In this document: positions 7,272 to 59,040 of the stretch, in pieces | Layout of the letters: each line of letters opens with the position of its first letter | How positions within the stretch are numbered: the first letter of the stretch is position 1 | Assembly (NCBI GenBank): GCA_013115125.1 | Contig: JABANN010000017.1 | Coordinates: forward strand, 1 to 64,000 | Source: Perkinsus olseni | Lineage: Eukaryota | Length of the DNA stretch: 64,000 bases | Direction: 5' to 3' | Program-made: the position numbers and the translations under genes | Notes under the pieces: model-generated | What the model was told of the DNA's origin: nothing | The model's database searches: none | Seen by the model: the letters and a program-made list of their open reading frames with translations, nothing else

Positions 7272-8251
7272 TCATAACATGTGCAGAACTGATCTGGCGA
7301 AGATGTGGTAGTCCACCGTCCCTGATGGCAAAGCCGATCATACTCGGGAAATAACAGAGATGATAACCTCACCGGTGGCCGTTGCATCGGCCTGTCGAAT
7401 CATCCCGTCCGCCTCTTCTTCGGTCAACGCGTCGCCCATCGACGTCATCACGTTGATGAGCTCAGCTGCGTCTATCTTCCCACAACCCTCTCTGTCGAAG
7501 ATCTTGAAGGCTTCAATAACCTCTTGCTCTGTTATGACACTCCTTCTCAATAAGGATACGAGCCTGATACCACAGACCCCTTACAGCTGCTTAATCGACG
7601 GGTGTCCACCTTATAAAGTCCTGGAAATTCAATAGCCCTTTGCCCGAGGGGTCAGCCTGATTGAGTGCCTAGGGAAGGATCGTAATCGACATGAAAATAG
7701 ATTTCGTTGATACATCAGTAAACTCGTCGTCACTGCTCGACCCACCCGCCCTGACGACAGAAATCAGCACAATTCTTGCAAGCTCGCCGCTCACCGGTTG
7801 AATGCAACCCGAGCCTCTATTGAAGTTATCACGCCGTCGCCAACGACATTGACGGTTTGGAATTCCCGGGCGAGTTCAGCGATATCCTGCGGGGACCGAC
7901 TCCAATGGGGCCACCAATCGTAACTTGAAGGAAATTTTTGCGGCCTTACTTTCTCACAAATGCCATGAGCTTCCTGAAGGGAGAAGTCGTAGCCGAGCTC
8001 GGAGACTGTCGGGAACTTGACCTGCTCACTCTGATACGATATTGGACGTTTTCCGTATCCCCTACCCCGAGACCCTCCAGCTCGATAATCGTTCTCTCGG
8101 CTTCTGTCAGCTCCTCTGTCTCTTCTGGTTGAGTGTCTTTGAGTGATTTATCTGCGTCTTCGCCCGCAGAGGTTCGATCCCCGGTCTCTTCCTGTTCAAC
8201 CATCGGGTCGACGGACTGTCGATTTTTCGCTTCGCCCGAGGCCTCAGACAT
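7272..8251 (-). CDS. Calmodulin-like EF-hand protein with an acidic N-terminal extension
   Basis: EQEVIEAFKIFDREGCGKIDAAELINVMTSMGDALTEEEADGMIRQAD..TVDYHIFARSVLHML*; stop codon at 7272-7274. Confidence 0.85.
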
Positions 8252-11324: not shown

Positions 11325-11708
11325 TTTTACTACAACCACTGCTGCGAAAGGAAAAGAACAACAACCAAACCGGCGGTAATTACAGTCAAGGATGGACGGT
11401 GCATCATTGAAAGTTCATGTCTAACGTCGTCAGCCCTGTCCTCCTAGCTCGCGCTATGCGTGTGTATCTTAGGCCCCAGCATGAATAACTTCTGGTGAGT
11501 TCAAACATTAGTCTCCAGCTTGACCTATTTTGCATCTTACCAGAACCAACCTAAGATATTTCCGATACTTCCCCATCACGTGAAACGCAACTCATTATAA
11601 TATGCAGCCTGGTCATCATCATACAGCCTCAGTCGTCGTCATCCACAGTGGTGCTAATACGATCAACAACAAGTGAATGGTGGGAGCATCAGCATCATCA
11701 TACACCGA

Positions 11709-12274: not shown

Positions 12275-12515
12275 CGCTGCAGTTGATGACTTCTCCGTAA
12301 AGGAAGACCAAGACAGGGGGAAAAGCTATAGCGAAATCGATCACGCGCAAAAGGAAAGACTTTTGTCCATCTTGCAATCTTGCAATTTCCTAACGCTCTT
12401 GACACGTTCAAGGTATCTTACGGTTGCTGTGAATATGCTTCCCACCCGACTTGGCAATGGGTTCGAAATAATAGCCACGCAGCAGGTAGCATTCTACGGT
12501 CAGAGATTGTCAACT

Positions 12516-13066
12516 ATGCCCACTTTCTCGGGGGTTGAGGCTGTGGACTTGGTGTTGGCTGATGATGAGGACGACAATCTCGACGTGGCTGAGATGAGCC
12601 TAACTTGTCATGGTTTTGACGAGGATCGGATCAGTCGAGTGAACTGCGGAGAAGATGCCATCGATAACGTCGTAGCAGTCCTACCATAAATCGACCTACT
12701 CGCGATTCTGTTCTCTCAGTTGGAGCTGCAGGAGAGTGACGATGTAGACGACCCGGTAATCGTCCTCCTAGATCTCAACATGCCCCCAAAGATGGGCGGC
12801 GCTGAGGCTGCCGAGAGGATCCGAACGATGATGGGCAACGAGGAACTAGCTCGGTATTCCCATGCAGAAGGTCGTGGGTTCGAATCCCGCTTGCTCCCCT
12901 CAGGAACGTCATGTTGGTCTGCTGTTCCGCCGGCCGAGTGGAGGACCTCAAATCCCAAAGCTGGGCCCACAACTTCGATCATTTCTGCACCAAGCCCTTC
13001 ACGCCCCAAACCGCCGAAGAGCTCGCTACAGCCATCGAGCAATGGTGCGAGGAACAAGATGAGTAA
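12516..13066 (+). CDS. Stand-alone response-regulator receiver (CheY-like) protein, 3 exons
   Basis: Spliced product: VLADDEDDNLDVAEMSL..NCGEDAI / VIVLLDLNMPPKMGGAEAAERIR / NVMLVCCSAG..FDHFCTKPF..EEQDE*. It retains the acidic pair, the phospho-acceptor Asp (DxxMP), the Ser switch residue and the KPF motif. Confidence 0.85.
12854..12903 (+). pseudogene. 50-nt intron made almost entirely of a tRNA 3' half
   Basis: gta-ttCCCat-gcaga-aggtc-gtggg-TTCGAAT-cccgc-ttgctcc-cctcag: anticodon loop, stem, variable loop, T-arm and acceptor strand in correct spacing. Removing it restores the receiver-domain frame. Confidence 0.75.
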
Positions 13067-13296
13067 CGATGGTGTTGTTCATCATTTGCATGCCTTCTAT
13101 ACCATAACTCCGTGAAATCACGTCATCAACCCTCTCTTGCGTTTATCATACCCAAGCCTTCCTGGCTCAATAACGATTCTAGTGGACGCATGTTACTGGC
13201 TTGTTCGAGGAGGGTCCGCGGCCACTACGGAACGCAACTGCTCTCGGTCATTGAAATAATTAATCATTTAAAGATTATTAAATACCAATAACATCA

Positions 13297-15658: not shown

Positions 15659-15829
15659 TGGCTCAGCAACAAGGCGGGAGGAGGAGGAATACGACGCCTA
15701 GTCTACAAGGTATGCGCGGCGAGTCCCTAGCGACCACACAAAAAGACGGACGGCGGCCCGAACGTTACATGAACACAACGCTGGAGGTGATGATGATGCG
15801 TTATCGCTTATGATGTTAGCATAGCGTCA

Positions 15830-17533
15830 TTAATTATTCCCAACAGTCACGAGCCTCGCATACTGCAGCCAGCACTTGGACGGCACTCCCTCTCTGTCGC
15901 CCTTATACAGATGCCGGCGGACCAGCCTACACACAACGCGGGACTCCAATGGGGTGGCCCGACAAGGCAGGGTACCGATCCACGGTGATGTTGCGGAGGT
16001 GGAGGAAGTAGGCACCCAGGTCCTCGAGGTCGTCGGAGGAGATCTTGCTGAGGTCCGTCTCTTCCCTTAGGAGAAGTAGGGTACCTTCACCAGGTGGCAT
16101 CAGAACGGCCAACCCCCCGGTCTGTCATGCTACGCTTCCAGTCATTGATAGACTCGCCACCTTTATCGGCATCAATAGAAGCATCTTTGAGGATCCACAA
16201 CAGCTTGTCCTTCGACAGCTTACCCGAGTCGGAGGTGCCACTGCCGTCTGAAGCAGTGGGAGGAAATGAGAACGCACACCAGCAACGGCGATAACTAACA
16301 ACGAGCAACGAAAAGTGTGGTATTAGGGAATACGATCGGAAGACTCTTGAAGGTTGCAAGGAGCTCTCCTTCCTTAAAGACGAGGACCTTCGGAGAATCG
16401 ACATTCATATCTTCGTTCCTCTGACTTGACATAGCTCACACCCACTACTCCAATCACCGCCATACACTATGAGCTGCTAAGCAGGGCAATATGTACCATT
16501 GCCTTCGACCCTGATGATGCTGCTGACACGGGCACGCTGACCAGCCAGTCATTCAAACTCATACGAGGCGTTAACTGTACAGGCAGCCGAAGTGGCCAGC
16601 ACCTGCCATGTCTTTGGCATCGCCCTCGGTGTCGTGATTCTGCATAGCGTCCAGGGTGAGGCAGAGGCATCGATGAATCCAGATCATGAGGTAGGTCATT
16701 ACTCGGTCGCAATTGTCCATCGTGCGGAATCCTGCAAGACAGGAACGGGGCGTCCGAAGAGCTCATCAGAGGCCCACCGGAGCTCACTGTCTCGCAAGTG
16801 GGATCCCCCATCCCCTCCACGGTACGTTCCCAGTGCCAGAATGTCAAGGCGGAAAGCCTTCAAGGCCTCGTCAACAATATCTAGGTAACCTGAGTTCACC
16901 CAGAGTAACCTCAAGATACCCGTCACGCGCCCCGACGAACAACTATATGAACCCGCGTCCAGCAGGTTCCACCACGAGCGAGGATAGGGCTCCTCTTCAC
17001 CACTACGGGCAACGACGGTCGTCACCACGACCACGATGGAAGTACGAGCACCGTCGCGGCCTGTCCCAGCTACCGGGCTCCTGCTGCTTCCAGTCCCCCT
17101 CAACACTGGGCACGCTAGAGTTCCTCGTATTCGACTTGACTGGTAGAATCGGGACGCTACGCGAAGAAGTATGAGAAGTGAGTCGGACGGTCAACACGAC
17201 CCACCCGCACACATAACGACATCTCACTTTCAGTGAGCTGAGCCACTCAGCTTGATGGCTGTGATACAGCATGAGAGAAGGGAGCCTCAGAGCCTGTTGG
17301 GAGCACAAGAGTGCATCACCCGGCTCCCATAGTGAGTCTGCTTCCCACCCACTGTCAGCCCTACACTTCAACGCAAGGCGTTGTAAGTCTTGAATGGGCG
17401 AACAGAACACCCACGGCCAGACGCGACTTGCATGCGGGTCCAAAACTGAGGCCCTACGGCCCATGACTCCGCGACACCCTGCGTGCGTTGCCCTAGCAAA
17501 CAGGGTCCAGTATTCACCTTCAACCTTCGTCAT
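15830..17533 (-). CDS. Hypothetical protein(s), multi-exon
   Basis: Series of protein-like ORF fragments flanked by GT/AG sites (e.g. YLDIVDEALKAFRLDILALGTY, EDLGAYFLHLRNITVDRYP); no family recognised. Confidence 0.4.
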
Positions 17534-17790
17534 GCCTGACGAGATAGGACAACCACTGGCGAGATGCCGACGTGGTCTCTCACGGACAGCGATGCTCTAG
17601 GCACTCATGCAAAGTGCAAGCACAAGAGAGAATTCGCGCGCTGTAACTTTCCAGCACGAGGCACGCATTTTCCGCGGAGATTATGGTGATGGTAGGCGGC
17701 GGCATTGAGAATCCCTCGAGGCTCAGCCAACCTCACTGACGCCTCCAGGACTAAGCACGGGCGTACAGGATAATAAAGTTACGGTTATTA

Positions 17791-19258
17791 ATGCGCGTAT
17801 CGAGCATCAACATCGCCCTCGCCGTTACACTTCAGCAAGCCACAGGAGCCAGCCTACCTAAGAAGGTAAGTCGCCCTACAGGCGCAGGTCACCTCATAAT
17901 TTCCACTCCTCGCCATCCCACCTACTTCTGTGTTTCCAGGCTAGATTATCACCAAACTCTGGTGCTGTGCGGCAAAAAAGCTGTACCCTCACGACAGATG
18001 ACTTCCAGGGAGAACAGGAGCTCATGGGCATATATTCCAGCAGGCGAAACGCCAGCTACTGGCCAGTAAGTGATGTCTAGCCCAACACTGAGGGTATTCC
18101 TAAGTTGATGGTGACGTAAAGAAGGTCGCCCCTCGTTTCGGACCACGCCTCGAGTGCTTTTCATTTTCTGTAGCACTGGGCATCAGTCACTGCCAAATAC
18201 GACGAGGAAAGCGACAGCTACTTCGTCGATCACGTATCAGTTGAAGCAACGTGAGTGGGGATGTGTCGCTAATCATGGGCCCCATGAGATTGAGGACGAT
18301 TTTCCGCCCGCCGGCTTACTGACCGAAGATGGACCCCATTTTCAGGGTGATCCTGCTCCCCCAGCTCCACCTATGCCACGGAATCTTCCACTTTTTGAGT
18401 CCCGGAGAGGTACCGTTCGAAAAAGCGGCAAAATACACGCTGGAGAGTGATTCTGACTGCGAGGAGAGTATCATCAATGGTGCGAAACATATGCTCTTCA
18501 AGATGGTGCAAAACCCTCTGTCCGAACCTCAAGACTGCGTGGCCTGCTACCAAAATCTGTACGCTAAGATGACTAGGAGCCCTAGAATCTTATCGCCGCT
18601 CATTATCTTTCACTTTATCTGGAGACATGACACGAACTCATCTATGCCAACTGAATGGGCTTTTAGGGACTACCCACATTTATGGAATGAGGTGAGCATA
18701 GCAGGGGCATTGAACAATACAAGGAGCGCTAAGCCACCTCCACAGGAAACCCTCGAAGTGCAGCTAGGCATGACCTGGAGCGGAGTGCGCAATCATGCAT
18801 TCTTATCGGAGGTCGTCGTGTCGTATTCCTCGAGAATGCTCTGTCCGTAAGTGCGCTTCGCTAGCAGCGTTGATGCCTGGAGCCACTTTTCTGTCAGGTT
18901 CCTGCTCTCTGAAGAAGGCCTGAGCCTTCTGCGGTCCGCATGGCGAGAAGTGAGTCTTTCAGGTCTAGAGAGGATGCAGAAGAATGCATCAGCCATGATG
19001 GTTGACATTGCCAGAGAGCTTCTGAACAATCATGCCGTGAGAGGCAGAGCTGAGATACCCGGGTGGAACCTCATCACCGACGAGTACGATTCAGTAAACG
19101 TAACGGTCCCTTTTGCTGAGATGCTGATCACCGCCGTCGCCCTCGGCTGGGACCAGGAGCTGCAGCCTTTTCGTCCTAGACGGTCGGTGCGCGATTACAT
19201 GAATCGGGTACTACTGCAGCGTCCGCTGCCCCCTGCGAATACAGCCGGGGCAGCTTGA
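17791..19258 (+). CDS. Hypothetical secreted protein, multi-exon
   Basis: Signal-peptide-like N-terminus MRVSSINIALAVTLQQATGA, followed by a GT donor and long coding-like exons at 18329-18850 and 18851-19258. Confidence 0.55.
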
Positions 19259-20314
19259 GAAGAAAACCAGGTTCAATTCCGTCAGATGGTACTCGTAGTG
19301 ATGTTAAACAACCTGTCTTGTGTTGCAGTGGAACTCTTGGTCGAGTGTCTCACAGATGTCTACCAGATGACGTGCTAAGTGAGACCGTGGGAACTGGCGT
19401 AGCTGACGCTCAGACTGAGCGGCTCAGTTCCGTCCGAGTTGTCATTCACAGCCTGTGATAAACATCTTTGACTCAACAGCACGCTACAGACCCTGTGGGC
19501 GCCTGAGTCTAGTTGCGGGAGGAGACTCCTCCATGCCATGCAAATTAGGAGAATTGCTCGCAGTTGCACGTTTTGGCATGGTCTTCGAGGTCCGGTTGAT
19601 GGGTCTCTTCACTGTGTAGAGATTGTCCCTATACTGCACAATAATTGTCTCCGATTTTAAAATTATGCTGTGTCGTTTATAGCGTGACGCTAGAGCGCAT
19701 TACTCAGATGTTATTGTTCTTTAAGCTCGTGTAAAGCCTACGGCCTTTACTCATAACGAGTGTCTTGGGTTTGGTTCAATTTACTACACTGTCGTCAAGG
19801 ACGACTCGTCATTACGATGGTAGAGGCAGGAACACAGAGCACACCCACCCCCAAATCCCTGGCCACTCGAGTTAGCCCAGTACGTGTCCGCCGCCGAGCC
19901 TCTGTCGTGTTGTAAAAACGGCGCAGTGCAGGTTAGATGGGGATACAGCCTCTAGTGCTCTGAACTTTCTCTCAAAGACTTGGAATCGTGCAAGTGCCTA
20001 AAACTTCGCAATTTCGCCAGTAGGCGGTGCCGAGGCTATCAAGCCAGGGTTGGGAGCATGCCAACGACGGCGAAGATTCGGTTTTTCGATTCGGTTGGTC
20101 GAGAGACTTCTCAGACACTGTAGTATCAGGGTGACTGCGAAATATCTAGAGGAAAGCCATGAATGCTTCGTAGACCACACGTCTCTCGAAGCTACTTGGA
20201 GATGTCGCGTCCATCACAGTTGGGAACGTCATGATAAGTCACCGTTACATTTGGCTGTCTGACGGAACTTGATAGGCTCACTGCCCATGGTGTCTGTGGC
20301 GTGTGTGAGTTTAG

Positions 20315-20363
20315 AGTCCAACTTAGCCGTACCGTCGGCCCGACGGTATGGCTAAGTTGGACT
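20315..20363. repeat. 24-bp-arm inverted repeat with a 1-nt spacer (one G/T mismatch)
   Basis: agtccaacttagccgtaccgtcgg-c-ccgacggtatggctaagttggact. Confidence 0.9.
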
Positions 20364-21579
20364 AGCACCACCGACGTACCTTTCTGACGGGGATTAGTTA
20401 AGCCTGTCAAAATTGCTCTGTTCATCCAAAGCCAAAGAACGTTGCTCTCAGGGCGAGGCCACTGCCCGTGGAGAGATCCATGTTCTCGAAGAAAACGGAG
20501 AGCTACTCTTCGACAAAACGGAGAACTATACCCGGGAATGGACATGTCGACTGTGAAGTGAGCCACCGTTGAGGTCGGGTGATCGTTGATAACGTTGCCA
20601 ACGGCAATACATACGGTAGAGGAGCGAGCTTATATACAGTTAATAAAGGATCTCGTGGAGACAGTTTTTTTGCAAGCAACTCTCGAGCTGCCATGATGTT
20701 CAAGGGTCATTTAGATACCTTCCTCTGTAAAAACCGATTCCAATGGCGCCTCAGAAATAGTCGTGTGGCCCTAGGAACGCAGTTTCCTACGGCGCTAAGA
20801 CCGTACCGTAGGTCTCCTGTCACCACAAGGGTCTTGTCAACACCATTTCGACTTTCGGCACTCAGTGATCTCCACCCCCCTTCGGCAACAGTTACACACA
20901 GTAATACCCAACCAGGTTCAACCGCCACCAACGAGGAAGACGGAACTTCCAGCCAAGCCGACTGCATGGACGCGCTGAGCGCGTCGCAATCGTCGAGGAT
21001 GCAAGAGCGATGTTTTCGAAATACCCCCCACCCACCTGACCCTACTGCATCTCTTCAGCCTCTCCTCCCACCCAGCAAGGAGAAAACTAGTTCGGGCATC
21101 TCATCATGGGACTCCCATGATGGGAGCGAAGGGCGCGGATTGAACTACCGGATGCAGCCCTCGAGGAACGCACGCCCGGTGGGCTGCTTCAAGCGCCGAA
21201 CCATTCCCCTTCCGAAAACTTCACCGCCTAACTATCACGCAACGCTTCACGGCATGATGGACACTACGACTGATGCAAGCATGTGCACAGCGCTGTCCTC
21301 TCTCCACAGGAAGTGCATCGTAGCTGTGATAAGTCAATAACGGCTGGCGCGGGAAGGCCTCTATGAAGCTGATGATGATGCTGGTGCTCATGGCTGCTAC
21401 CACGGGAATCGTGACCGGAGGGTAACGAAGGCGGTCGGAAAGTCGAAATATTCGAAAGAAACTGAGAAGGGAAAATACCGAGCCGCAATCTACCTCTCCA
21501 CTTCCTAGATGAAGCGCCCTTCAGTTCGATATCGCCCAACGTAGCGCAGCAAAGAATTTAATCACAAAATTTGATAACA

Positions 21580-24085
21580 TCAGCGCCAATCCGTCGGCAA
21601 GAAGAAGGAGCGCGACGGGGTCGTGGAGGTATAGAGAGCGACGTCACTTACATTAAGCATACCAGGGAGGTTGCCGAAGGGCGGTGGTAGTTCTGGCGGC
21701 TGTAAAGTCTGCGTGTAAGAGTCGGCGATCTCGTTGGGCACGTAAACGCTTTTGGCCTGCTTCTCTTCTTCACTGCTACTGCTGCTAGAGGGGGAAGATT
21801 CCGAGGACGACTCCGAAACAGTATCATCCGATTCCTGGTCCTCCGATGAACCATCCTTCGAGCTGTTGTTGCTGCTGCCATCGCTACTGGAAGCGGAGGA
21901 ACTGAAAAATGCAATACGAGTGACGCCCAACTGAGTACGTCAGCCCACTCTAAAGAAGCTAACTCCGATCCGGACTGCTCGTCGTCCTCCCTAATGTTAT
22001 CAGTACCGTCATCACCGACTTTATTTCCACCGGAGCCTCCAGGCACGGACTTAGCCTTGGAAGACTTCTTCCTGACAGATGACGAGGATATCACCAATAC
22101 TACTGCTGATGATGCTAATCATCAAGAATAGTACTACGCTTACTACTGTAAGCACACACTACTATTATCACCACCATTACTATCACTCCCACAGTGGGAG
22201 AGGTGTTCATAGCAGTGGAGTAATAGTAATACTGTAGTAATAGTATTACTCGCAGCGGATAGTAGTGGTAATCCCACTGTCNNNNNNNNNNNNNNNNNNN
22301 NNNNNNNNNNNNNNNNNNNNNNNNNNNNNNNNNNNNNNNNNNNNNNNNNNNNNNNNNNNNNNNNNNNNNNNNNNNNNNNNNTGGAGTAATAGTAATACTG
22401 TAGTAATAGTATTACTCGCAGCGGATAGTAGTGGTAATCCCACTGTCTACCACTAACACTACTGATACCCGACCCCCCTCACTACTTCAAAGGATATAAA
22501 CATTTCTATGAGTATCACTGGTTACAACGGACACTGTTCAAAGCACTGCTAGCATTCTCCTCCCATGATGACGGTCCCTTCTACTTTTTCTTTTTCGCTC
22601 TTTCTTTCTTCTTCTTGGCTCTCTCCTTCTCCTTCCTTCTGCGGTTTTCCTTCCGTTTTTCCTCTTTCTCCTCCCTCAACGCCCCGAACCTCCGTTTCCG
22701 ACCAGGGTCAATCGCCGGATGTCGGTGCCTGGGTCGCGGCTTCAACTGCAGAGGGAGGTATCCGAGAGCTTCCTCTGGGCAGGTTGGGACGGCGGGGACC
22801 ACCCGCACATCTGAGAAATAATAGTCCACCCCTGAGTACGACACTGGTCCTGAGACTTTTAAGCGAGAACATTAATGTGGGCTCCTTCGGCGACCACCAC
22901 GCCATCCACCAGTGACCAAACGATGCTCGCTGGTCGGTGGATGCCGATACAGCAGTCTGCAATGACGAATAAAATGCAACATGCAAAAATGAGGCCACTA
23001 GACCGCCACGCCGACTTGAGGCCGGGGTACTTTGAAGTACTGAGCCAGCAGAGTGCCTCGAGTCCTAGCTGCTCGCGATTTTCGGTCCCTACTTCAGACT
23101 CCACAAAGAAAGGTCCTTTGTCAATGGACGAATATCCCGACTTAGTGATCTTCGGACCTTTCGCGTACCATGCGGCATAACAGTCTCAATTGATGATCCG
23201 TCTCTTCGTTACAGATTGCATGCTGCGGAACCGCGGGAAATCTTTCAACTGGCGGCGGAGTGTAATGGCCGTATATCTGCTGCGCTGTGATACTCCGGCG
23301 AAGTTTAAGGCCCAGTTATCCTCCACAGTGAGCGGTATACCCCACAGATCAGCTCTCAAAATTACACTAACAACACGCGGCAGCCGACAGCAGTCGGATC
23401 ACACCCTCTTGCCCAGTTGACCCAACGACCGGGGATATACGATTCGTTGAATTTAAAACTGATTCTTGAAGCGCCCAGCCGAAGTGACTAACGGCATGCC
23501 GGGACTGGCTGTACGGAGGCACATTCCAAGTCCTGTTTCCCACTAGTACTACAACACTCATACTAAGCACAGCGAGGAAGGGTCGAGCGACCGTAGACCC
23601 CCTGCAGTACAAGCAGCCGTTTCGTCTCCTGAGCTGAGGTCTCCGTCGTCACGGGGTCGACTCGGGAGCATCCTGAAGCCGTTCTGCAATGGCTCTATCC
23701 TTTCACGTCTCATTGGAGGCATATCTAAGGTCGACCCGTGCACTTCGCATAATAGGTGACCCTGTAGTACCATAAAGATTCCCGTACATTTGTTTTCTTA
23801 TCATCCTGTCCTCCTTCCTCAGCTGTTCAGCTGTGGCTGGCTCCTGACTGTCCAGGAAGAGGTCAACCTCAGGCAGGCTGGGCTTGGGAGGCTTCCGTGG
23901 TGCCGCTACAACGTTGGCAATCGGCAGCCCCTTGCCGCCACGCCACGGAGGCCCCCTAAGAAGCAAGCTTCGACCTAAGATACGCCACTCGCGTACCCCT
24001 TCTTAGCTAGAGGTACACCGCCGCCCTTTCCCTTGCCGACCCCCTTCCCTCCTTTACCCCCGCGTCCTTTACCAACAGCATTCAT
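21580..24085 (-). CDS. Hypothetical protein with a G/K-rich N-terminus and K/E- and S-rich low-complexity regions; spans an assembly gap
   Basis: MNAVGKGRGGKGGKGVGKGKGG.. splices to LLRGPPWRGGKG..; later segments are EEKEEKRKENRRRKEKERAKKKK and SSSASSSDGSS..PTDWR*. Confidence 0.45.
22282..22381. other. 100-N assembly gap flanked by an identical 66-nt duplication
   Basis: 22216-22281 is identical to 22382-22447. Confidence 0.95.
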
Positions 24086-24330
24086 GTTGATAACCTGTGA
24101 TCTTATCATACGCAATTCAAATCTCGCTACGCCATGCTGATCGATATCACTCGCTTATCAAATCTTGCGTTGTATATATTCTTATCATCCACGATCGGGA
24201 GCCCTTACCGCCGTGTGGCTTGATAGGACCTCTTCAGCGTCTGCGTGTGGTGGGGAGCCTTCTTAGCATAACCTAGGAGTCGCGTTATCGTTAATACCTC
24301 TACTCAGCAGTTGGCAGTCTTGATCTGAGT

Positions 24331-27300
24331 ATGAGTACAGCTGGTGGAGCGTATCAAGATGGGACTGGACCTCGAGAAGGGGGGCATGCAGGCATCACCA
24401 TCGCTTTGCCAGCCCATCATCCTCTTTACCCGGGGGACTTAGCCGACATGTCGCCGTTACGACACTCCCTCTCCCGGCCTGAGAGAAGACAATCGGTACT
24501 AAGGCAAGGCGGGAAGGGTCACTTAGTGTTGGTATTCAGTCTATTAACGTGCTGGGCTTCGACCTGTATGATGCTGTTGAGGTCGAACAGAAGGGTTGGA
24601 GGGGCGCCAAGGAGTGGGTGCCCGGCACGATCGTGCAGGTGAATGCTCATAACAACACCTTCGACGTAAAGGTAATAAGGATATCTTTCCTCCCGCACGG
24701 CGAAGAATCTCGAGACAGGTCTTGAAACCGAATCAAGAGGGAGAGGTGTTGGAGAACGTGAGCCCAGTGAGGATGAGGCGCATTGCGGAGTCAAGGCACC
24801 CTCACCAGCAGAAGGGCCGCGATAGCCCTCAGTGTAATCCCACCACCACCGGCGCTCAGTCGGGCGATGGCGCGTCTTCAGTGGGTCCCGTCCCGGGAGA
24901 TTCTCCAACTCACGGTGGACAAGACTTTTTGAAACAACGTCATTTGGGAGCCGCGGACGCCTGTGAGATCATGGACGAGTTCAACTTCCAGATGCAGGCC
25001 AGTCTGTTCACTTCGAAGGTAGCCTTACAGTGAGGGCCTCACGTCGTATCATGCTAGTCGGGTAAGGTACTCAAGCAGCTTGATTCGGTCCCGGAGTCGG
25101 ACTTGATGGCGGTGTCTCCCTGTGTGAAGTCTCTGGCACATGTGAGAGGTAGTGAAGGGGGGCGTATCGTGAGTAGAGGGGGTGCTCTGGTGGTGGAAGA
25201 ATACTCGATCTGGGCTGCTCGATCGTCTCTGGTCGGTTCACGAATCCTTGAGTGGTTAACTCCTCTTTGAGGGTGTCCTGTACGTGCATGGGTGCTGTAT
25301 GTTGCAGAGAGGACGAGGAGTCGAGTGGAGAGCGGCGAGGGCCCCTTGCTGGACCGCTTCTTCTTCCAATGTGACACGGACGCGGCAGCCGGCCAGGCTT
25401 CCACTTTCCCTACTAGTGCGCAAGTGAGTTATTAAATGGCGTTGCTGAGGATCGAACCGGGGACCTGTTGTAGGTCATGAAGATGCTGGAGAGCATCACC
25501 GACTTCCACGCCAATTGTCCCTTCACGAACTCGGGTGGAGTGGCGGACGTCGCGATGGGCACCAACTGTATCGTAGCTGATCGTCACTGTGAGGAGGTAA
25601 ACTGAGCTATCGCGTCGCGCGCCAAAAAACTCGCTATAGCCTGACCGAATGGAGTCTGGTGTCTTGCTCCTCAGATTTGCAGTCCTGAGGCGATGGTACG
25701 GCTTCTGGATAAAATGTATGAGCTGCTCGAAATGGAGGCGCCGGTGAGCTCGCAGGCTGTCATAGTGACGATCCAGGTTCGAATCCGGGCTGGTGTCTTT
25801 TAGACCGCCCTTATATCGGTGACGGTACCAGCGGACGGTCGGTTGGTAGTGGTAGGAGACACTCATGGTCAGCTGGAAGATGTCTTGTGGATGCTGTTCA
25901 AGCATGGTGTACCCAACAGAAATAACGTGTAGTAAATATAGGATGTCGGAACTAGGGATCGAACCTGCGCGGGTCATAGATACCTTTTCAACGGCGACAT
26001 TGCTGATCGGGGAGGCCACGCTTTGGAGATCTTCACCTTGCTCTTCCTCTTCAAGCTACTATGTCCACAGAGTGTAGGCTTCTTGTCGTAATCCAAAGGT
26101 CCCTGGTTCGATCCCCACGCCCGGCAGGTATACATTCTCCGTGGCAATCACGAGGACGATTACTGTAACTTGAACTACGGCTTCCTTGCTGAACTCAGAC
26201 ATAAATTCGGTCAAGTTGAAGGTGGTCGGATGCATAAGGACTTCCTCAGGGTACACCACTCTCGGGCACTATCTTAGCTCGTACCACACCTTGCCCGCAT
26301 CAGGTCTTTTACAGCCTGCCCCTGTCATGCGTGATCGATTCCTGGGATGGATACTATCGCTGCCAACAAACGCATATGTTGGTCCAGCTCAAAGTTGGAT
26401 CATCCCCAGTAGCGGTGACGGACGTTCCCGGGCAGCATAGGAGAGTGGTAATGAGGGGGCGTACCGCGTAGCCTACCTGCTCTCCCCTCACTGCGCACCC
26501 GTCTCTTCCCGCAGCTGTGTCAGTGAGCACTTCATCATTCGATACCGATAATATGCTTTGGCGCTCGCCGCTGTACTCCCAATGGGAATTATCCTTATTT
26601 GGCTTCATGTTACAGCGGTCGATGGCACGGGAGGTGTACTCTACAGGTGCCCGTAGTGCTTCGTGAATGTTCGGGCGAGGACACCTCAGACAGCAGCTCG
26701 AGCGATGACGACGCGGATCTGAGCGCAGAGAATGGTTGGTATCAGGGAGGGGTGTCCGAAGAGAGGCTAGTGTTCGATAAGCGTGTTGGTGTCCGAGGCC
26801 TGAATGAAAATGGCGATACTGAGGTACAGTGGGGCGGTACTCTTCCGAGTGCATCCAAGCACTTCTGCTGCTGCTGATGCTGATGGTGGTGGTCAGATCA
26901 AGTGGTCTTCGGGAGACATCTGGACCTACGTATCGCCTCGCCTCATCGTGCTTCATGGTGGTCTGCCGATGCACCCGGGCTCGGGCTCGCCGATAAGCAC
27001 TCAAAGACCCACCGGAGCTTTTGCTTCCTTATTCTCGTAAGAGCAGTGTGTATAGCCAGTGTCGTCGAGCCTGTGAGTTTCCTCGAGAAAGGTCGTTGGT
27101 TCGATTCCCTCGCCGACCATTTTCCATTTTAGGGGCTCCTCGGCGATGGGGTCACAAGCCGGCGGCAGCAGCAGCAGCCAGGATGACGATGGGAGGAGGT
27201 GTGTCCTTCTCAAGTACTTCCATCAGCTCCCGAATCGCATGAGGATACCGAGCTCACCGCAAGGAGTGTTCGAACAGTGGATGTATCAGATCCTCTGGAG

Positions 27301-30300
27301 CGATCCAAGGTCATAATGAGAGGGGTGGTGGGCGTTACCCTTATCTATTCTTATTCGCCTCGTGAAGGGTCCGAAACTCGACAAAGCGCGATGTTTGCTG
27401 CAAATTTGTTGGTCGGAATGGACTCGGTAGTTGTTGCTGCGGTGCTCACCATTTTGAGGGCTGGTTGTGATGAGGATGAAGGGTCTCTCGTTCGCAGGGA
27501 AGTTGGTGACACGAAGGGAAGAGGTACTCCGTTCTACCCCGATGACACCGAGCTGTTCTGCGACCGGAACAACATCCACACCGTCATCCGGTAGTACCAG
27601 AGGGTCGCTGTCTGCTCCTAATCCTTGGTTGTAGGAGTCATCAGCTGCCGGCCATGCAAAGAGGATTCTCCTTCCATCACAAGCATAAGCTCATCACCAT
27701 ATTCTCGGCGAGTAACTATTGTGGAACCTCTCAGAACTATGGAGGTAGTACTGGGATCACGCGTCTCCTTCTTGAGGGGCACGTGTGTGGACAGTGGATA
27801 CTGCCGAACTGGGCTAAACGGTGTGACTGAGAAGAAAGTTCGTGACGTAAAACATGCAATAGTTGGGCCACTATGCCACTGAGCGCGAGAACGGTGGTCG
27901 AGGTATCGAAGCAATGACGAAGTGGTGGGTGCTGCCTGGGGCATCAGTTGTAGTAGCAGCTCCGGCTGCTCTCACCGCTTGGCCTAGTGGTCTCCTCTCT
28001 GCATCTTACATTCTTCCCGTTATAGCCTGTATATCGAATGGTTGTTGGCCTTGCCAGCGGTCTCACCATTGCAATTTTCTTCTCTCCATTGGTCCCCTCG
28101 TCTACACGTCTTTCTTGAACATAACCTGTGTCCTCCCCGTGGAATCGCTGGGACTATGTTCTTTAGTATCGGTATCGCTGATATACCAACAATCTTATTA
28201 CTCTCAGTGATTCTTGACCCAGAACAGTCGTAGTGCTTCAATGAGGCTTGTGAGAGAATCTCACCGTGTCCTGATCACTCGACATTTTGATCAGCTATTG
28301 TGATGGAGAAGTCTGCTTGGCATCGCCCAGCTAGCCGACCCCGTAGTTTCCCGTTTTAGGTCTTCTCATCTTCACCACGGAACTCTTCCCCGAGATACAG
28401 TATTCTCGTAACCTGTTCGAGCATTGGAGCCCTCCTCTCTCCGTCATACAAGATGTTTACTCCAAGGTCAGTCGCGGCAGCACCGTTCGAGCGCTCTCAA
28501 TTTCCATTTCTTGGTCAGCACAAGAATGCCAGTCAAGACGTACGACAGTACATCGCCAGAGAGACAGAATCGGCGCGGATGCCGACTGACATGAACAGCA
28601 GCACAAAGTGGCTGCATATCGAGGAGAAGGTCTCGGAGTACGCCATGTCACTGATTGTGCAAAACAAGAGACATCTGTGGACTAACTTGTGGACGCGGGA
28701 TGAGGATAAAACTATGAGGGTGGATCTTGCCGATTGGGAAGATGTGATAATGGCGGGGTGTGGTATCGAAGGGCCATTTTGTGATTCGATCGCATCAGGC
28801 CTGCGCCCAAGTAGTGGGGCATCAGTTCCCTTGGAGGACCCTATTCGTGCAGCTGGATATTGAAGAGGAGGATGATGGCACTGTGGACTACCTGGACTTC
28901 CTCAATAGGTTCAGAGCTAGTCTTCGGGACGAGAGTGGTAATAGGTGGGGGGCCTCTGCCGGGTCAAGGGGGCTGTCCAGCTAGACGCTTTTCCACTGAA
29001 GAAACAGCATCACCAGGATTGGCCGCCTGCTCGATTTCGTACCACTCCTCGCTGTAGGTCCCTTCGATTCCTGGCTGGCATCAGTCGTTCTTGGATTCTT
29101 TATGGATATTCTCAATGCTGATATGGCAATACAACAAGACCTGCTCACTGGGTAAGAGGAAATCTTGCTATCTTACGATTTCTCAACGCGGACTATGAAT
29201 GGTGAGTCCATCCAGGCTTCATCATCTCAGGGAACCCGGCGAGAACCTTATAAACTACGAGCAGTTCGAACGGTCACTCCGCGACAACTGTCCAGACTTG
29301 ACAATCACGCATGTACGGATTTCATCGCTCCGCTAGGGAAATAGTTCATGTTTCACTCTTTTCAGATCCAACTTGTCTGGCAAGCCCTCATTGAGTGTTC
29401 CACCCCTGAGCGCCGTCGTGCTGGCCTGGTGGACGCTCGCCAGTTCGTGTGTGCTTGCGGCGAGTTCTATCGAGCCCGATGGGTAGTAGGAAATGGGTAT
29501 TATTTTTTGCATCGCTCCGTCGTCTCAGGATCTACACGAGCCCGTCTTTTCGACTGCACAGACCTTACCGTCGGCCAATGAGGAGGAGATGCTTGAGAAG
29601 ATTATGGACTTCCTCCCGAGACTGCGGGATTCCATCGAACAGAAATATGATAATGACACTCAGGTTGGCAATGGGGGAGTGTGCATATCATCAGACCTCT
29701 TGAATTTGGCGGTGGTCCGTATCTTTCTCTTCTGTATAGATCTCGGGCGAGGTCGGTTGGACCGAGTTGGTTGCACTCCTAAGAGTCTTCGTTTCCAAAC
29801 TACTGTCTCCAGTTTTTAGATGGAATTGCATTTTTCCGTCGTCTGAGAGTTTGCGATTTCTTGGCTGTTTCAGCGATTCTTCGAAGAAAAAATAGAAGAT
29901 CCCGCAAAGAAGAAGATTCCCGGCGCGGTCTCTAATGAAGGTCAGTCTATCATCCATCAGCGCACCACCACCACCGTCATTCATTTCCACAGACTTCGTC
30001 AACGCGTTGACCGCCGAGCTTCCCTCTTTGGGTATCACCGAGCTACCATCGCGCAACTTCCTCGAGCTTACCGCTCGCATGATGGAATCTAGCAGCGCCA
30101 CCAGCAACGGCCATCCGGCCGGCCGAGGAGCTCGCCTGGTCAGCTCAACCAACAGCGGCTACGTATCTTTGTTCCGCTTCATGGCTACACTGCACGTCGA
30201 TGGTACGGAGGCTGGCCGGGTGATGGCTCAGAAGATCATGGAACATAGCTGCGCGGCAACCTACTTCCACCGGAATGCGTTCAAGTGCGCATGTGCGCGG

Positions 30301-31241
30301 CTGGATCCGCAAAACTGTGGAGAGATTTCGAAGAGGAATTTCCGGAAGGCATTCACGGCTCTTAACCAGGCCTTGGATCCTGAATGGCGACTGACAAAGT
30401 GGGGAGGGGACAGGGTGAAGCGTGGGTCGACGGGATTATCGTCAGGTTGCAAATCGACGCTGCGTTGGACCATTTCGACTGGACTGTGGATGCAGATGAA
30501 GAGTTCACTGATGGTGGGTGATGGCAGCTCATTTCGTTGTACCTGGTGGATTTGCTCAGCATCATCGTCCGATCAAGACATGAAGTCCGTGGATGAGGAG
30601 CCACCAGCTGGGCAGGCCAGGCGTCCCACGCTGGGGGCCCTATCAGCTTCCAACACCAACAGTGCTTTGGAAATGCTCAGGGGTGAGCTAAGATGCTCTC
30701 TATCGCGTTCTCTTGTAGAATTGGAGAAGGGACGGGTGTTCACCTACGCTGGTGATTCTCCCCTTCCTTAAGAAGGTGTCTTGAATTGAGATGTTCGCGA
30801 AGAGTGGTATAGAGAATATACTCAGTGAGAGAGGATACCACACTAAAATATAGACTTATACGTGATACCACACCAATGGTTAGTATGAGCATGCAAGTGA
30901 CGGAACTAAATAGGACTAAGTGGATTCAAATATAATATTATATTCTTTCTGTCAGAGCGTTCGCGGACCCGTTCCTCGGCCCGCCTGATGCTGCCACCGG
31001 GCGCGAGTACGTCCGCTCCGATGGTGTTGGACCAACCACAACCGGAGCAATTGGATCAAAAGATGTGGATAAACTACGATCAATTCTTGAGGTCATTCGA
31101 GATAGCTGATTGGAGGAAGAACAGCAGGTGGGCGAAAAGCCCACGATTACATGCATCGCTCCGCTCATTTTTTGTGACATTTTTCTCAGAGCTGGCTCCT
31201 TCGGTTGGCATCTGCTGCGAAACAGCATGTTGAGATTTTAG
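24331..31241 (+). CDS. PPEF: PPP-family Ser/Thr phosphatase with C-terminal EF-hands (PPEF/RdgC-like), many exons; termini approximate
   Basis: [61 protein letters not shown]-hand-like segments [19 protein letters not shown] and [14 protein letters not shown]. Confidence 0.88.
25424..25473 (-). pseudogene. PPEF intron containing an antisense tRNA 3'-end fragment
   Basis: Reverse complement reads aggtc-cccgg-TTCGATC-ctcag-caacgcc-a-ttt; the T-stem is partly mismatched. Confidence 0.65.
25600..25616 (-). pseudogene. tRNA 5'-end/A-box-like fragment, antisense, in PPEF intron 25597-25674
   Basis: Reverse complement reads gacgcga-TAGCTCAGTT: a 7-nt acceptor strand followed by the canonical D-arm start. 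Confidence 0.45.
25744..25803 (+). pseudogene. 60-nt PPEF intron collinear with a tRNA from the D-loop to the 3' end (Asp-like GTC loop)
   Basis: G|GTGAG-ctc-gcagg-ctGTCat-agtga-cgat-ccagg-TTCGAAT-ccggg-ctggtgt-c-tttt-ag. Confidence 0.7.
25929..25979 (-). pseudogene. PPEF intron containing an antisense Ser/Leu-like tRNA 3' fragment
   Basis: Reverse complement reads cccgc-gcagg-TTCGATC-cctag-ttccgac-a. Confidence 0.65.
26074..26127 (+). pseudogene. 54-nt PPEF intron containing a Phe-like tRNA 3' half that ends at the acceptor AG
   Basis: atccaa-aggtc-cctgg-TTCGATC-cccac-gcccggc-a-g|. Confidence 0.75.
27080..27123 (+). pseudogene. tRNA 3' fragment in PPEF intron 27037-27132
   Basis: gaa-aggtc-gttgg-TTCGATT-ccctc-gccgacc-a-tttt. 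Confidence 0.65.
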
Positions 31242-39172: not shown

Positions 39173-39481
39173 CAAAATTACAAACAAACTTCGCGAAAAG
39201 TGACCTTGCTCTGAGAGCCACATTCCTCAGCTTGCTCAGCAGGTCCTATCCAACACGGCTATCCCCCACAGAGAGGTTCATCGGAGCCAGTCCGACTAAG
39301 CCGTACTGCCGGCGTTGGACTTTAACTCACACACAAAAAGTTGGTACGAACACGACTACCCGGAGAAAATTGACGCACGCTGCCGGCCACGCTAGCACAC
39401 AACCGAGGGAAGGCTGACGAACGCAAGACTCCTGTGGAGACACAATGGACAGTAAACATTAGCTTTTTTTAGCTCTGATGG

Positions 39482-40922
39482 TCAATAGTGGGGATACGCT
39501 CCGACACTCGAGTGCTGTCCAGGTTGGACATACACCGCGGGCTGACCATCAGGACCAGGCGGCGACTGACACGACACACCGTTTGGCAATATGTGAAGAA
39601 CACAAACACCCACCTGATAGTTGCTTGTTACAAAATTAGCACTGCTGTACCCAGGGGCGCCAGGAGGGGCTGATGGTGGCCCAGCACTGAACGGCGGACT
39701 GTAGTACTGTTGCTGCTGTCCGCCCGACTGCACCTGCACGAGGGGTTGACCATCCGGACCAGGTGGGGCCTGAGGCACACACAAACTATAGCGTGGTACG
39801 ATGCGATAGTACTGGGCGGACCTGATAGTTGCTGGTGGCGAAGTTGCCGCTGTTGTACCCTACAGACGGCTGCGGAGGGGGGACCGATGCGCCACCGATG
39901 ACTCTGCCTTGAATCTGATAGAGAGAGTTCTACCGTTCACCACACTGCCGTGCACGATCTCACCATAGGCCCTCGGCCAGCATTACTCCCCGGTGGAGCC
40001 GTACTTATGACAGTAGCATTCACTACAGCCGGCGCCCCGCCTCCCCCTCCTTGAGTATACGCAGTTGCTGCCGTTGCCGCTGTTGCTGGCATTGCAGTTG
40101 CTACTACGGGCTGAGCATTCTGAGGAGAGGCACTTCAATCCCACGTTGTTACCCAACAGGGCACTCACCCCATACGAACTCGTATTGGTCACGACCGTGG
40201 CCATGATTGGCTGGGACGGCTGCTGCTGTTGATGATGAGACGCTACGGGTACTGCAGTCGCATGGGCGACTACTGTCGGCGTGGGCGTAGCAGTTTTGCT
40301 GCTAGGAGTACTCGCCATCCTGATCGCTACGTTTAACGTGCCGGCCTTATTCGCCCCGTCTCGATACCTATGCATAGCCGACAATGAGCACTACCGGAGA
40401 GTAGATGTATTACAGCACGAGATCTCCTTCCCAATGTCCATGCTTGGCGATGGAGGCCATGCTCACCCGCGCTGACCCTACCTGCAAAAGATACCTATCT
40501 CATACCAATCGGTTATCGTACGCTCGAGAGGCCAGAGGAGGGTTCCATCGCAATGACTTACAAAATCGTCGGAGCTAAAGGTATCTTTGTCCCACACTTC
40601 AAAAGAGATCTCAGGCTCATCATCATACTTGAACTCCACCGACTCGTAGAATGTCGGGTTTCTTCCAACGTCTTTTTTAACCTACCGGAAAATCATTCAT
40701 CCCATCCCGGAATCGAACCTGGGACGTCAGGTTGTCAAACCTACATCAGTCTTATATTTTTTCCCGCGACCAAGTCGGACTTTGACGTATCTGACAACGG
40801 TATTGGTAATGCTACCATCAGCGAATGGTATCTTACGGATCCATCTTGCCGAACATCTCCGTATCATACAAGTCCCGAGCGTATTTGATCTCGACCTTCA
40901 CTTTCCTCTTTCCCTCGGACAT
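39482..40922 (-). CDS. C2-domain protein, paralog 2, with an A/Q/P-rich tail
   Basis: VKVEIKYARDLYDTEMFGKMDP/YVKVRLGRGKKYKTD/VKKDVGRNPTFYE..FEVWDKDTFSSDDF; same intron positions as paralog 1. Confidence 0.88.
40682..40744 (-). pseudogene. 63-nt intron of C2 paralog 2 containing a tRNA 3' half
   Basis: gtaggt-ttGACaa-cctga-cgtc-ccagg-TTCGATT-ccggg-atgggat-g..tag. Confidence 0.7.
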
Positions 40923-58983: not shown

Positions 58984-59040
58984 AATACACCTACCAGGGA
59001 TCGAACCCAGGACCTCTAACTCAACGCCAACAGTCTCACC
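58984..59040 (-). pseudogene. tRNA-like fragment forming a putative 49-nt 5'-UTR intron (59039-58991)
   Basis: G|GTGAG-act-gttgg-cgttgag-ttag-aggtc-ctggg-TTCGATC-cctgg-tag|gtgt-a-tttt. Confidence 0.65.

What the first reader, a model, noticed from the sequence alone, without database searches (positions are those of the whole stretch)
25743..26127. tRNA structural elements coincide with the splice sites themselves
Seen in sequence: at 25743 and at 59040 (minus strand) the donor G|GTGAG lies roughly at the distance from the T-loop where a tRNA D-loop GGTGAG would be. At 26127 the tRNA 3' end CGGCA plus one G forms the CAG acceptor. At 25803 and 27132 the T-run after the discriminator serves as the polypyrimidine tract. 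Established: D-loops contain GG, commonly GGT, and Pol III genes end in oligo-T. From memory, 26089-26126 closely matches eukaryotic tRNA-Phe (ATCTAAAGGTCCCTGGTTCGATCCC..CGGCA). Inference: tRNA genes come pre-equipped with a donor, a pyrimidine tract and an acceptor about 50-60 nt apart, close to the typical intron length here, so fragments could be immediately spliceable. The T-runs would point to a genomic or pre-tRNA source rather than mature CCA-ended tRNA.
Basis: partly seen in the sequence, partly recalled or inferred. Interest (0 to 1): 0.8.

Follow-up and report, generated by a model that had tools for sequence, protein, structure and literature searches.

The report
tRNA-gene fossils inside short Perkinsus introns
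Several very short introns of a Perkinsus (oyster/clam parasite) phosphatase gene and of neighbouring genes consist largely of the rear part of tRNA genes, and in some of them tRNA features double as splicing signals, which hints at an undescribed source of intron sequence.

Summary
The window is Perkinsus nuclear DNA. The tRNA T-loop/B-box 11-mer GGTTCGAWYCC occurs 8 times against 0.17 expected. There is no intact tRNA gene. Seven of the 8, plus two degenerate copies, lie in short GT-AG introns of four protein genes; six lie in one PPEF-type phosphatase gene. Two corrections apply. The intron ending at 27132 starts at 27037, outside the tRNA-like part. The intron starting at 59039 ends inside the tRNA-like 3' strand, so its T-run is coding.

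- Among 7 sense copies, donors fall at tRNA coordinates 20, 20, 21, 27, 29, 6 and -9.
- Acceptors fall at 68 to 89.
- A T-run starts exactly after the discriminator in 4 of 10 copies (P about 1e-4).
- Two intronic copies are antisense, and one antisense copy is coding exon.
- tRNA 5' (A-box) motifs are not enriched.
- Intron positions are shared with P. marinus and with a paralogue that lacks the tRNA-like sequence, so positions predate content.

One puzzle remains. The B-box core is perfect in 8 copies with no excess of 1-2-mismatch copies, yet 14 of 27 outer T-stem pairs are broken.

Best reading: ordinary spliceosomal introns filled by tRNA-gene-derived repeats. I found nothing like it in print.

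The parts
25744..25803 (+). PPEF intron 8 (60 nt, GTGAGC..TTTTAG). Carries a sense tRNA-like 3' part: T arm at 25773-25789, 3' strand CTGGTGT, discriminator C, then TTTT and AG.
   Evidence: Exact protein mapping; T-loop motif; weak global tRNA alignment at 25738-25797, 15.8 bits, E 7.4; splice-site coordinates.
26074..26127 (+). PPEF intron 10 (54 nt, GTAGGC..GGCAG). Sense tRNA-like 3' part. The AG is the discriminator A plus the next G. The T stem is only 2 of 5 paired.
   Evidence: DNA contigs of run X1 have loose ends at 26097 and 26112, which shows other genomic copies.
25929..25979 (+). PPEF intron 9 (51 nt, phase 2). Holds an antisense tRNA-like 3' part with an exact T-loop motif on the minus strand at 25955-25965.
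25424..25473 (+). PPEF intron 6 (50 nt, GTGAGT..). Holds an antisense tRNA-like 3' part. The T-loop motif has 1 mismatch; TTT follows the discriminator.
   Evidence: (26.7 bits).
25597..25674 (+). PPEF intron 7 (78 nt). A decayed sense copy of the intron 8 type. It shares the 10-mer CTGGTGTCTT and CTCGC with intron 8.
   Evidence: A related piece lies in intron 17.
27037..27132 (+). PPEF intron 14 (96 nt, GTAAGA..TTTTAG). Sense tRNA-like 3' part at about 27087-27123. The donor lies 63 nt before the T loop, outside the tRNA-like part. The intron sits in a Perkinsus-specific insertion of the protein.
   Evidence: The spacing of RNA contig X19 record 13 fits its exact removal.
27745..28359 (+). 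PPEF intron 17 (615 nt). Holds decayed pieces: an antisense copy of the intron 14 type around 27890-27925 (24 of 33 identical) and a sense piece like intron 7 around 28015-28040.
   Evidence: scores 24 and 23 against a null maximum of 22.
12854..12903 (+). Intron (50 nt, GTATTC..CCTCAG) of a receiver-domain gene. Sense tRNA-like 3' part with a perfect T arm (5 of 5 pairs).
   Evidence: Reading frame restored across it; weak Response_reg match for the upstream exon, E 0.013.
40682..40744 (-). Intron (63 nt, phase 0, GTAGGT..CGGTAG) of C2-domain gene B. Sense tRNA-like part. It shares the same A-G mismatch in the T stem with intron 8.
   Evidence: The next exon matches Pfam C2, E 9.9e-6. The paralogue intron at the same site has no tRNA likeness.
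58991..59039 (-). Intron (49 nt, GTGAGA..GGTAG) of a Gemin2/SIP1-like gene. Sense tRNA-like part with a perfect T arm. The tRNA-like 3' strand and T-run (58990 to about 58978) are coding exon.
8160..8195 (-). Antisense T-arm-like copy (exact motif at 8171-8181 on the + strand). It lies inside the annotated first coding exon of a calmodulin-like gene, where it codes for ..ETGDRTSAG..
   Evidence: X1 DNA contigs have a loose end at 8163.

Best explanation
These are ordinary U2-type GT-AG introns of Perkinsus protein genes. Their interior is a fossil of the rear part of a tRNA gene: variable loop, T arm (B box), 3' acceptor strand, discriminator and the oligo-T terminator of RNA polymerase III. 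None is a working tRNA.

The copies belong to a dispersed, heterogeneous set of tRNA-derived repeats present elsewhere in the genome. They sit in introns in either orientation. Because introns here are only about 50 nt long, one copy fills nearly the whole intron.

Where the copy is in sense, tRNA-gene features are used by the spliceosome:
- the terminator T-run serves as polypyrimidine tract (25803, 27132);
- the discriminator A plus a G serves as the AG (26127);
- in one subfamily (25744 and 59039) a GGTGAG at the D-loop distance serves as the donor.

Shown: tRNA origin of the 3' part, intron location, splice sites, both orientations, and absence of tRNA function.

Inferred: the copies came from tRNA genes or primary transcripts, and they entered or overwrote intron sequence at positions that already held introns, rather than founding all these introns. 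The coincidence with splice signals would then be partly inherited (the T-run, GGTGAG) and partly the result of which copies are tolerated in 50-nt introns.
For: - tRNA origin. The motif is 8 against 0.17 expected, and 10 hits against 0.13 in the weight-matrix scan. AGGTC precedes the T stem in 5 of 9 clear copies (listing). TTT sits exactly at coordinates 74-76 in 4 of 10 copies and TTTT in 3 of 10 (P 3e-5 to 3e-4).
- Not tRNA genes. ARAGORN finds 0 and Rfam finds 0 at gathering score. The best tRNA-model hit is 15.8 bits against a cut-off of 29.
- Intron status. Exact mapping of P0003; homologues P0007 and P0008; a C2 Pfam hit; RNA contigs with GT-AG joints.
- Dispersed copies. X1 DNA contigs break at 8163, 26097 and 26112. 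Intron pairs sharing 10-mers number 32 against 10.9 expected, 11 of them through the T loop. The best pairs are 24 of 28 and 23 of 27 identical.
- No structural role. The mean folding z-score of the 9 tRNA-like introns is +0.73 against +0.40 for 16 others (P 0.29).
- Positions older than content. The junctions of introns 8-11 are the same in P. marinus proteins, and the read-through of P. marinus intron 10 is 57 nt of unrelated sequence. The C2 paralogue has an intron at the same site without the element.
Against: - If copies had recently been added to existing 45-50-nt introns, these introns should be longer than the rest. They are not (median 54 against 53). A simple insertion model therefore fails; replacement or creation is needed.
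- In the GGTGAG subfamily, the similarity between the two copies starts at the donor itself. That is what creation by insertion predicts.
- The core 11-mer is perfect in 8 copies. Independent 1-mismatch copies number 4 against about 3.7 expected, and 2-mismatch copies show no excess. Yet 14 of 27 outer T-stem pairs are broken. Neutral decay of true tRNA copies does not give this pattern.
- Five consecutive introns of one gene carry copies (P 0.002), which random landing does not explain.
- Only one 64-kb window was available, and no tRNA genes of this organism were available for comparison.
Confidence: 0.55

Rival explanations
1. Fragments of tRNA genes (D loop to terminator) inserted into exons and were spliceable at once, so they founded these introns. 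This would make them an introner-like element derived from an RNA polymerase III gene.
For: - The copy fills the whole intron, and lengths are typical.
- Donors lie at coordinates 20, 20 and 21 in 3 of 7 sense copies.
- Similarity between the two GGTGAG copies begins at the donor and ends at the T-run.
- Removing introns 6-11 restores a protein colinear with an intronless relative, the 1121-aa ORF in L001.
- The T-run starts exactly after the discriminator.
Against: - The junctions of introns 8-11 are the same in P. marinus, while intron sequence there is unrelated.
- The C2 paralogue has an intron at the identical site without the element.
- Two intronic copies are antisense.
- The donor of intron 14 is outside the element.
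- The acceptor of the 59039 intron is inside the element.
- There are no near-identical copies; the best is 86% over 28 nt.
- No flanking duplications were noticed, but this was not tested formally.
Confidence: 0.2
2. The conserved part is a working B box. The introns would carry binding sites for the polymerase III factor TFIIIC (like 'extra TFIIIC' sites of yeasts), or small polymerase III units, kept by selection. The rest of the tRNA likeness would then be decaying.
For: - The 11-mer that equals the B box is perfect in 8 copies, with no excess of 1-2-mismatch variants. The flanking stem positions are broken in 14 of 27 pairs.
- Copies cluster in one gene (P 0.002).
- Copies occur in both orientations.
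Against: - The copies were found by searching for the perfect motif, so part of the contrast is ascertainment.
- There is no A-box enrichment.
- The read-through of P. marinus intron 10 holds no sense B box and at best a 2-mismatch antisense one (my own reading).
- Imperfect stems could already have been present in repeat-type source copies.
- No binding or expression data are available.
Confidence: 0.15
3. Remnants of complete tRNA genes that once nested in introns, then died and were trimmed by deletion to the preferred intron length.
For: - P. marinus is reported to hold unusually many tRNA genes: more than 500 copies of five types (PMC3706591, passages read).
- The long intron 17 holds several pieces.
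Against: - No full-length pseudo-tRNA was found. 5' motifs are not enriched.
- There are about 10 fragments and 0 intact genes in 64 kb.
- Perfect cores next to heavily trimmed flanks are hard to reconcile with slow decay.
Confidence: 0.08
4. Chance or convergent resemblance, for example a splicing motif that happens to look like a T loop.
For: One strong weight-matrix hit (38928, 18.4 bits) is plain coding sequence of a C2 domain. Look-alikes therefore do occur.
Against: - The motif is 8 against 0.17 expected, with 0 of 100 shuffles reaching 8.
- The variable loop, 7-nt strand, discriminator and T-run sit in tRNA register.
- The T loop does not fit a branch-site consensus (my reading).
Confidence: 0.02

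Closest known systems
Introners and introner-like elements (intron-generating transposable elements of algae, fungi, dinoflagellates and Amoebophrya)
   Same: Repeated sequences that make up whole short introns in unrelated genes. The element's ends lie at or near the splice sites. Several can occur in one gene.
   Different: - Copies here are not near-identical; the best is 86% over 28 nt.
- No terminal repeats or target duplications were seen.
- The source is a tRNA gene, not a transposon.
- Intron positions appear older than the content.
- The main texts of two large surveys (PMC9860276 and PMC12130899, term searches) contain no occurrence of tRNA, SINE or Perkins. Their supplements could not be seen.
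tRNA-derived SINEs and their use as splice signals (exonisation of Alu or MIR, where a T-run becomes a polypyrimidine tract; recalled, not read here)
   Same: A sequence derived from a polymerase III gene with a B box. A run of T from the element serves as polypyrimidine tract next to a fortuitous AG, and cryptic GT donors lie inside the element.
   Different: - Only the 3' part of the tRNA is present. There is no A-box enrichment, no body or tail, and the T-run is the terminator rather than an antisense poly(A).
- The outcome is an intron, not a new exon, except that parts of two copies (8171 and 58990-58978) are coding.
Filler DNA captured at chromosome breaks that becomes an intron (for example introns of mitochondrial-DNA origin; recalled, not read here)
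   Same: Foreign or ectopic genomic fragments end up as intron sequence. Both orientations occur, and the sources are heterogeneous.
   Different: The source here is recurrent and specific (tRNA gene 3' ends with terminator), with about 10 copies in 64 kb. That is far more systematic than sporadic capture.
Extra TFIIIC (B-box only) sites
   Same: An isolated, perfectly kept B-box 11-mer without a functional tRNA around it.
   Different: The known sites are intergenic and were defined by factor binding. Here the location is intronic or exonic, the adjoining tRNA 3' strand and terminator are present, and binding is untested.

Membership tests
Functional tRNA gene | Cloverleaf scoring above the detection threshold of tRNA finders or the Rfam tRNA model | tested here: not met
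   ARAGORN finds 0 genes. Rfam finds 0 at gathering score. The best hit is 15.8 bits against a cut-off of 29 for 25738-25797. There is no hit for 58930-59110.
Functional tRNA gene | Paired T stem and acceptor stem, and an anticodon arm | tested here: not met
   14 of 27 outer T-stem pairs are broken. No paired anticodon stems appear in register. The apparent acceptor pairing of intron 8 uses the conserved Ala-Pro codons of the exon.
U2-type spliceosomal intron | GT..AG ends whose removal restores the conserved reading frame | tested here: met
   All 27 PPEF introns run GT..AG under exact protein mapping. Junctions are colinear with four homologues. 15 of 15 listed RNA joints are GT..AG.
U2-type spliceosomal intron | Spliced form seen in RNA | tested here: inconclusive
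   RNA contig spacing fits removal of introns 13 and 14. The joints for introns 6-10, 12854, 40744 and 59039 were not displayed or not covered.
Introner / introner-like element | Many near-identical copies forming introns in unrelated genes | tested here: not met
   Within the window, similarity is limited to 27-33 nt at 73-86%, and the repeat finder gives no family. The genome-wide state is unknown because no genome was held.
Introner / introner-like element | Element ends coincide with intron ends; presence or absence of the intron among relatives | tested here: inconclusive
   Ends coincide in introns 8 and 10, but not in intron 14 or the 59039 intron. The positions are present in P. marinus and in a paralogue. 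All introns are absent in the distant relative L001.
tRNA-derived SINE | Internal A box and B box at tRNA spacing | tested here: not met
   The B box is strongly enriched. A-box patterns are at background level.
tRNA-derived SINE | tRNA-unrelated body, a tail, and target-site duplications | not tested
   The copies are confined to 50-96-nt introns. No formal search for duplications was made.
Extra TFIIIC (B-box) site | Match to the B-box consensus | tested here: met
   8 exact matches to GGTTCGAWYCC.
Extra TFIIIC (B-box) site | Occupancy by TFIIIC without polymerase III | not testable with these tools
   No binding data are available.

The most novel reading that the evidence does not exclude
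Perkinsus carries a mobile or copy-generating source derived from tRNA genes. It would be transcribed by polymerase III and keep a perfect B box while the tRNA structure is lost. This source repeatedly writes itself into genes as ready-made 50-60-nt introns, or overwrites existing ones. Its donor comes from the D-loop GGT and its polypyrimidine tract and AG come from the terminator and 3' end. That would be a new, polymerase-III-based kind of intron-generating element and a driver of fast intron sequence turnover.
Probability: 0.25. Interest if true: 0.8.

Novelty: new variant of a known kind. Interest (0 to 1): 0.6.

Why it matters
Where new intron sequence comes from is a long-standing question. 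Known intron-generating elements are mostly DNA transposons. Here about 9 short introns in 64 kb, including 6 of 27 in one gene, are made of tRNA-gene rear parts. tRNA-gene features serve as splicing signals in some of them. I found no description of this in six literature searches or in the main text of two genome-wide introner surveys.

If the pattern holds genome-wide, it would give:
- a concrete, datable source of intron sequence in an alveolate parasite;
- a natural test of how little is needed for a 50-nt intron to be spliced;
- possibly a new class of polymerase-III-derived intron element, or intronic B-box sites.

If it does not hold genome-wide, it remains a local curiosity of one gene cluster.

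Tried and rejected
A genome-wide plot of splice sites in tRNA coordinates was therefore impossible.
- ARAGORN with lowered thresholds is useless here. At 80% it gives 38 calls, mostly noise, though four overlap the elements; at 70% it gives 236.
- The Rfam tRNA model gives one weak global hit and none for the 59039 intron.
- The apparent 7-bp acceptor stem formed by exon bases 25738-25744 is rejected. Those bases are the conserved Ala-Pro codons found in all five homologues.
- A-box-like strings in the exons before 12854 and 59039, and an antisense one at the start of intron 7, are judged chance, because the motifs are not enriched.
- The weight-matrix hit at 38928 is C2-domain coding sequence. 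Hits at 45090, 50454 and 52408 are borderline and were left unclassified.
- RNA folding shows no extra stability.
- A home-made coding-potential segmentation, meant to estimate intron and intergenic fractions, recovered only 74% of known exon bases and called 34% of intron bases coding. It was dropped. The claim that copies avoid intergenic DNA is therefore not quantified.
- Regular spacing of introns (145-185 nt start to start) was considered as nucleosome phasing and dropped. The exons between are only 69-125 nt.
- Reading the P. marinus intron 10 from its read-through translation for a B box was inconclusive.
- Read laying displayed only 15 of 59 joints and 24 of 152 loose ends. Absence of a row there means nothing.
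- The metagenome scan gave one distant, intronless relative and no close Perkinsus DNA.
- tRNA-Phe or tRNA-Asp identity of single copies rests on recall only and is not claimed.
Full report
**What the window is.** The window is eukaryotic nuclear DNA with many short introns. RNA contigs of three runs laid on 8100-28099 show joints that all read GT..AG; 15 of 59 joints were displayed, and all 15 are canonical. A 41-aa exon translation finds a Perkinsus olseni protein at 100% identity and a P. marinus protein at 98%, so the organism is a Perkinsus. No whole genome is held. The window has no tRNA gene by ARAGORN and no Rfam family at gathering score.

**The motif.** The tRNA T-loop/B-box 11-mer GGTTCGAWYCC occurs 8 times against 0.17 expected, and 0 of 100 shuffles reach 8. 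The sites are 8171+, 12877+, 25776+, 25955-, 26105+, 27098+, 40709- and 58997-. A weight matrix of coordinates 44-65 gives 10 hits at 16 bits or more against 0.13 expected. It adds an antisense copy in 25424-25473. One of its hits (38928) turned out to be coding sequence of a C2 domain.

Read in tRNA register, the copies show a variable loop (AGGTC in 5 of 9), the T arm, a 7-nt strand, a discriminator, and often a T-run. TTT begins exactly at coordinate 74 in 4 of 10 copies and TTTT in 3 of 10. Against the TTT and TTTT frequencies of PPEF introns, P is about 4e-5 and 3e-5. Against the T-rich last 20 nt of introns, P is about 3e-4 and 1e-4.

**Gene models.**
- PPEF phosphatase. The P. olseni protein P0003 (1257 aa, a phosphatase with EF hands) maps letter for letter to 24331-30768 as 28 exons and 27 introns. 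tRNA-like sequence lies in introns 6 (antisense), 7 (decayed, sense), 8 (sense), 9 (antisense), 10 (sense) and 14 (sense). Decayed pieces lie in the 615-nt intron 17.
- Receiver-domain gene. The intron is 12854-12903 on the plus strand.
- C2-domain gene. The intron is 40744-40682 on the minus strand. The next exon matches Pfam C2 at E 9.9e-6.
- Gemin2/SIP1-like gene. The intron is 59039-58991 on the minus strand, by two P. olseni homologues of 93% and 80% identity.
- Calmodulin-like gene. The copy at 8171 is antisense and lies in the annotated first coding exon.

So 7 of the 8 exact motifs lie in introns and 1 lies in a coding exon.

All are right (see the observation check). There are two corrections.
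- Intron 14 begins at 27037 (GTAAGA), not at the GTGAGT of 27074, because a TAA follows in frame. The spacing of RNA contig X19 record 13 (142 record positions between the displayed pieces, equal to 2 + 140 nt) fits exact removal of introns 13 and 14.
- By the homologues' model, the intron that starts at 59039 ends at 58991. That is inside the tRNA-like 3' strand, so its T-run is coding.

With the first T of the T loop as coordinate 54 and no gaps:

| Intron (sense copies) | Donor G | Acceptor G |
|---|---|---|
| Intron 8 | 20 | 79 |
| 59039 intron | 20 | 68 |
| Intron 10 | 21 | 74 |
| C2 intron | 27 | 89 |
| Receiver-gene intron | 29 | 78 |
| Intron 7 | 6 | 83 |
| Intron 14 | -9 | 86 |

The two antisense introns span coordinates 37/38 to 86/88.

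Three donors cluster at 20-21. Two of them share GGTGAG followed in register by GAGC or GAGA, and their 3' strands are alike: 26 of 50 positions outside the core are identical, the highest of all pairs. They are one subfamily, so they count once. GTGAG donors occur in 3 of 9 tRNA-like introns against 0 of 21 others (P 0.02). One of the three is in an antisense copy, where the D loop cannot be the source. A-box/D-arm patterns are at background level (23 against 18.5, and 23 against 22.9). Only the rear part of the tRNA is represented.

**Not a simple repeat family, not structural.** The repeat finder gives no family for these copies. Local alignments among them cover 27-33 nt at 73-86% identity. 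Introns as a set share more 10-mers than shuffled ones do (32 pairs against 10.9, sd 3.1), and 11 of those pairs go through the T loop. DNA contigs of the probable source run break at 8163, 26097 and 26112, so further copies with other flanks exist in the genome. Predicted folding is no more stable than for shuffled sequence, and does not differ from other introns.

**Age and origin.** The intron positions look older than the tRNA-like content.
- The P. marinus protein P0002 has the same junctions for introns 8-10. A gene call that reads through introns (P0001) shows a P. marinus intron 10 of 57 nt with unrelated sequence, and an unrelated intron 11.
- The two C2-domain paralogues in the window have introns at the same sites. 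Only copy B carries the element, and the paralogue's 47-nt intron shows no likeness.
- A distant relative from a metagenome (L001) encodes the whole protein in one 1121-aa ORF without introns. It is colinear across sites 6-11 and 17. Intron 14 lies in a Perkinsus-specific insertion.

Against simple insertion into old introns, the tRNA-like introns are no longer than the others (median 54 against 53). Either content was overwritten in one step, or some of these introns were founded by the element.

**An unexplained feature.** The core 11-mer is perfect in 8 copies. Independent 1-mismatch copies number 4 against about 3.7 expected, and 2-mismatch copies show no excess. Yet 14 of 27 outer T-stem pairs are broken. 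If true tRNA copies had decayed neutrally to that degree, perfect cores should be a small minority. By my own arithmetic on those counts, about 5% would stay perfect, with several times more 1- and 2-mismatch copies. Two readings remain open. Either the B box is kept by selection (in place, or in repeat-type source copies that need it for polymerase III transcription), or the copies are young and their sources already had imperfect stems. In addition, five consecutive introns of one gene carry copies (P 0.002).

**Literature.** Searches for introner with tRNA, for intron gain with tRNA-derived, for Perkinsus with introns and tRNA, for Perkinsus with introner, for P. olseni genome with introns, and for six phrasings of "tRNA-like or tRNA-derived introns" gave no paper describing spliceosomal introns made of tRNA-gene parts (listings and abstracts seen).
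- In PMC3706591 (passages read), P. marinus is said to hold more than 500 copies of five tRNA types and transposons that target tRNA genes.
- In PMC3101222 (passages read), most P. marinus introns are under 100 bp.
- The main texts of two introner surveys (PMC9860276 and PMC12130899, term search only) hold no occurrence of tRNA, SINE or Perkins. Their supplements, which list species and families, could not be seen and may bear on this.

**Verdict.** The most likely account is ordinary introns filled or overwritten by tRNA-gene-derived repeats (0.55). The rivals are introner-like founding (0.2), working B-box sites (0.15), trimmed nested tRNA genes (0.08) and chance (0.02).

Noticed in passing
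window 29329-29639 (-): Weak match to nuclear RNase P RNA (16.3 bits, cut-off 28, E 1). It lies antisense over exons 22-24 of the phosphatase gene and is probably spurious.
   Followed up: no
window 44619-44675, 20315-20363, 42469-42511: Three near-perfect hairpins: arms of 28, 24 and 21 nt, 89-96% complementary, with a 1-nt loop. The first is flanked on both sides by CCTAAGAT, a motif also found in a 4-copy direct-repeat family at 23964, 36245, 44911 and 63010. This may be another small repeat class.
   Followed up: partly
window 38700-39200 (-) and 40450-40950 (-): Two diverged paralogous C2-domain genes 1.7 kb apart with the same intron positions. Exons are about 65-85% alike, and the first shared intron is still about 50% alike.
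   Followed up: yes
window 22216-22281 and 22382-22447, N run 22282-22381: A 100-N gap is flanked by two identical 66-nt copies. This looks like an assembly join across a repeat rather than biology. X1 depth is raised in that bin.
   Followed up: no
window 57353-57736: A tandem array with a 32-nt start-to-start period; the repeat finder lists 9 overlapping 128-nt copies. It lies downstream in the Gemin2-like gene region.
   Followed up: no
window 29313-29365 and 29483-29528: Phosphatase introns 22 and 23 share the 10-mer CATCGCTCCG. This may be another small intron-borne repeat.
   Followed up: no
window 7949-8281 (-): One public annotation (P0010) fuses a PP1 phosphatase to the calmodulin-like protein that P0009 annotates alone. 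The gene model here is uncertain.
   Followed up: partly
window 11435-12768: Very high RNA contig depth: up to about 110,000 in X7, against tens to hundreds elsewhere. This is a very abundant transcript. It was not identified.
   Followed up: no
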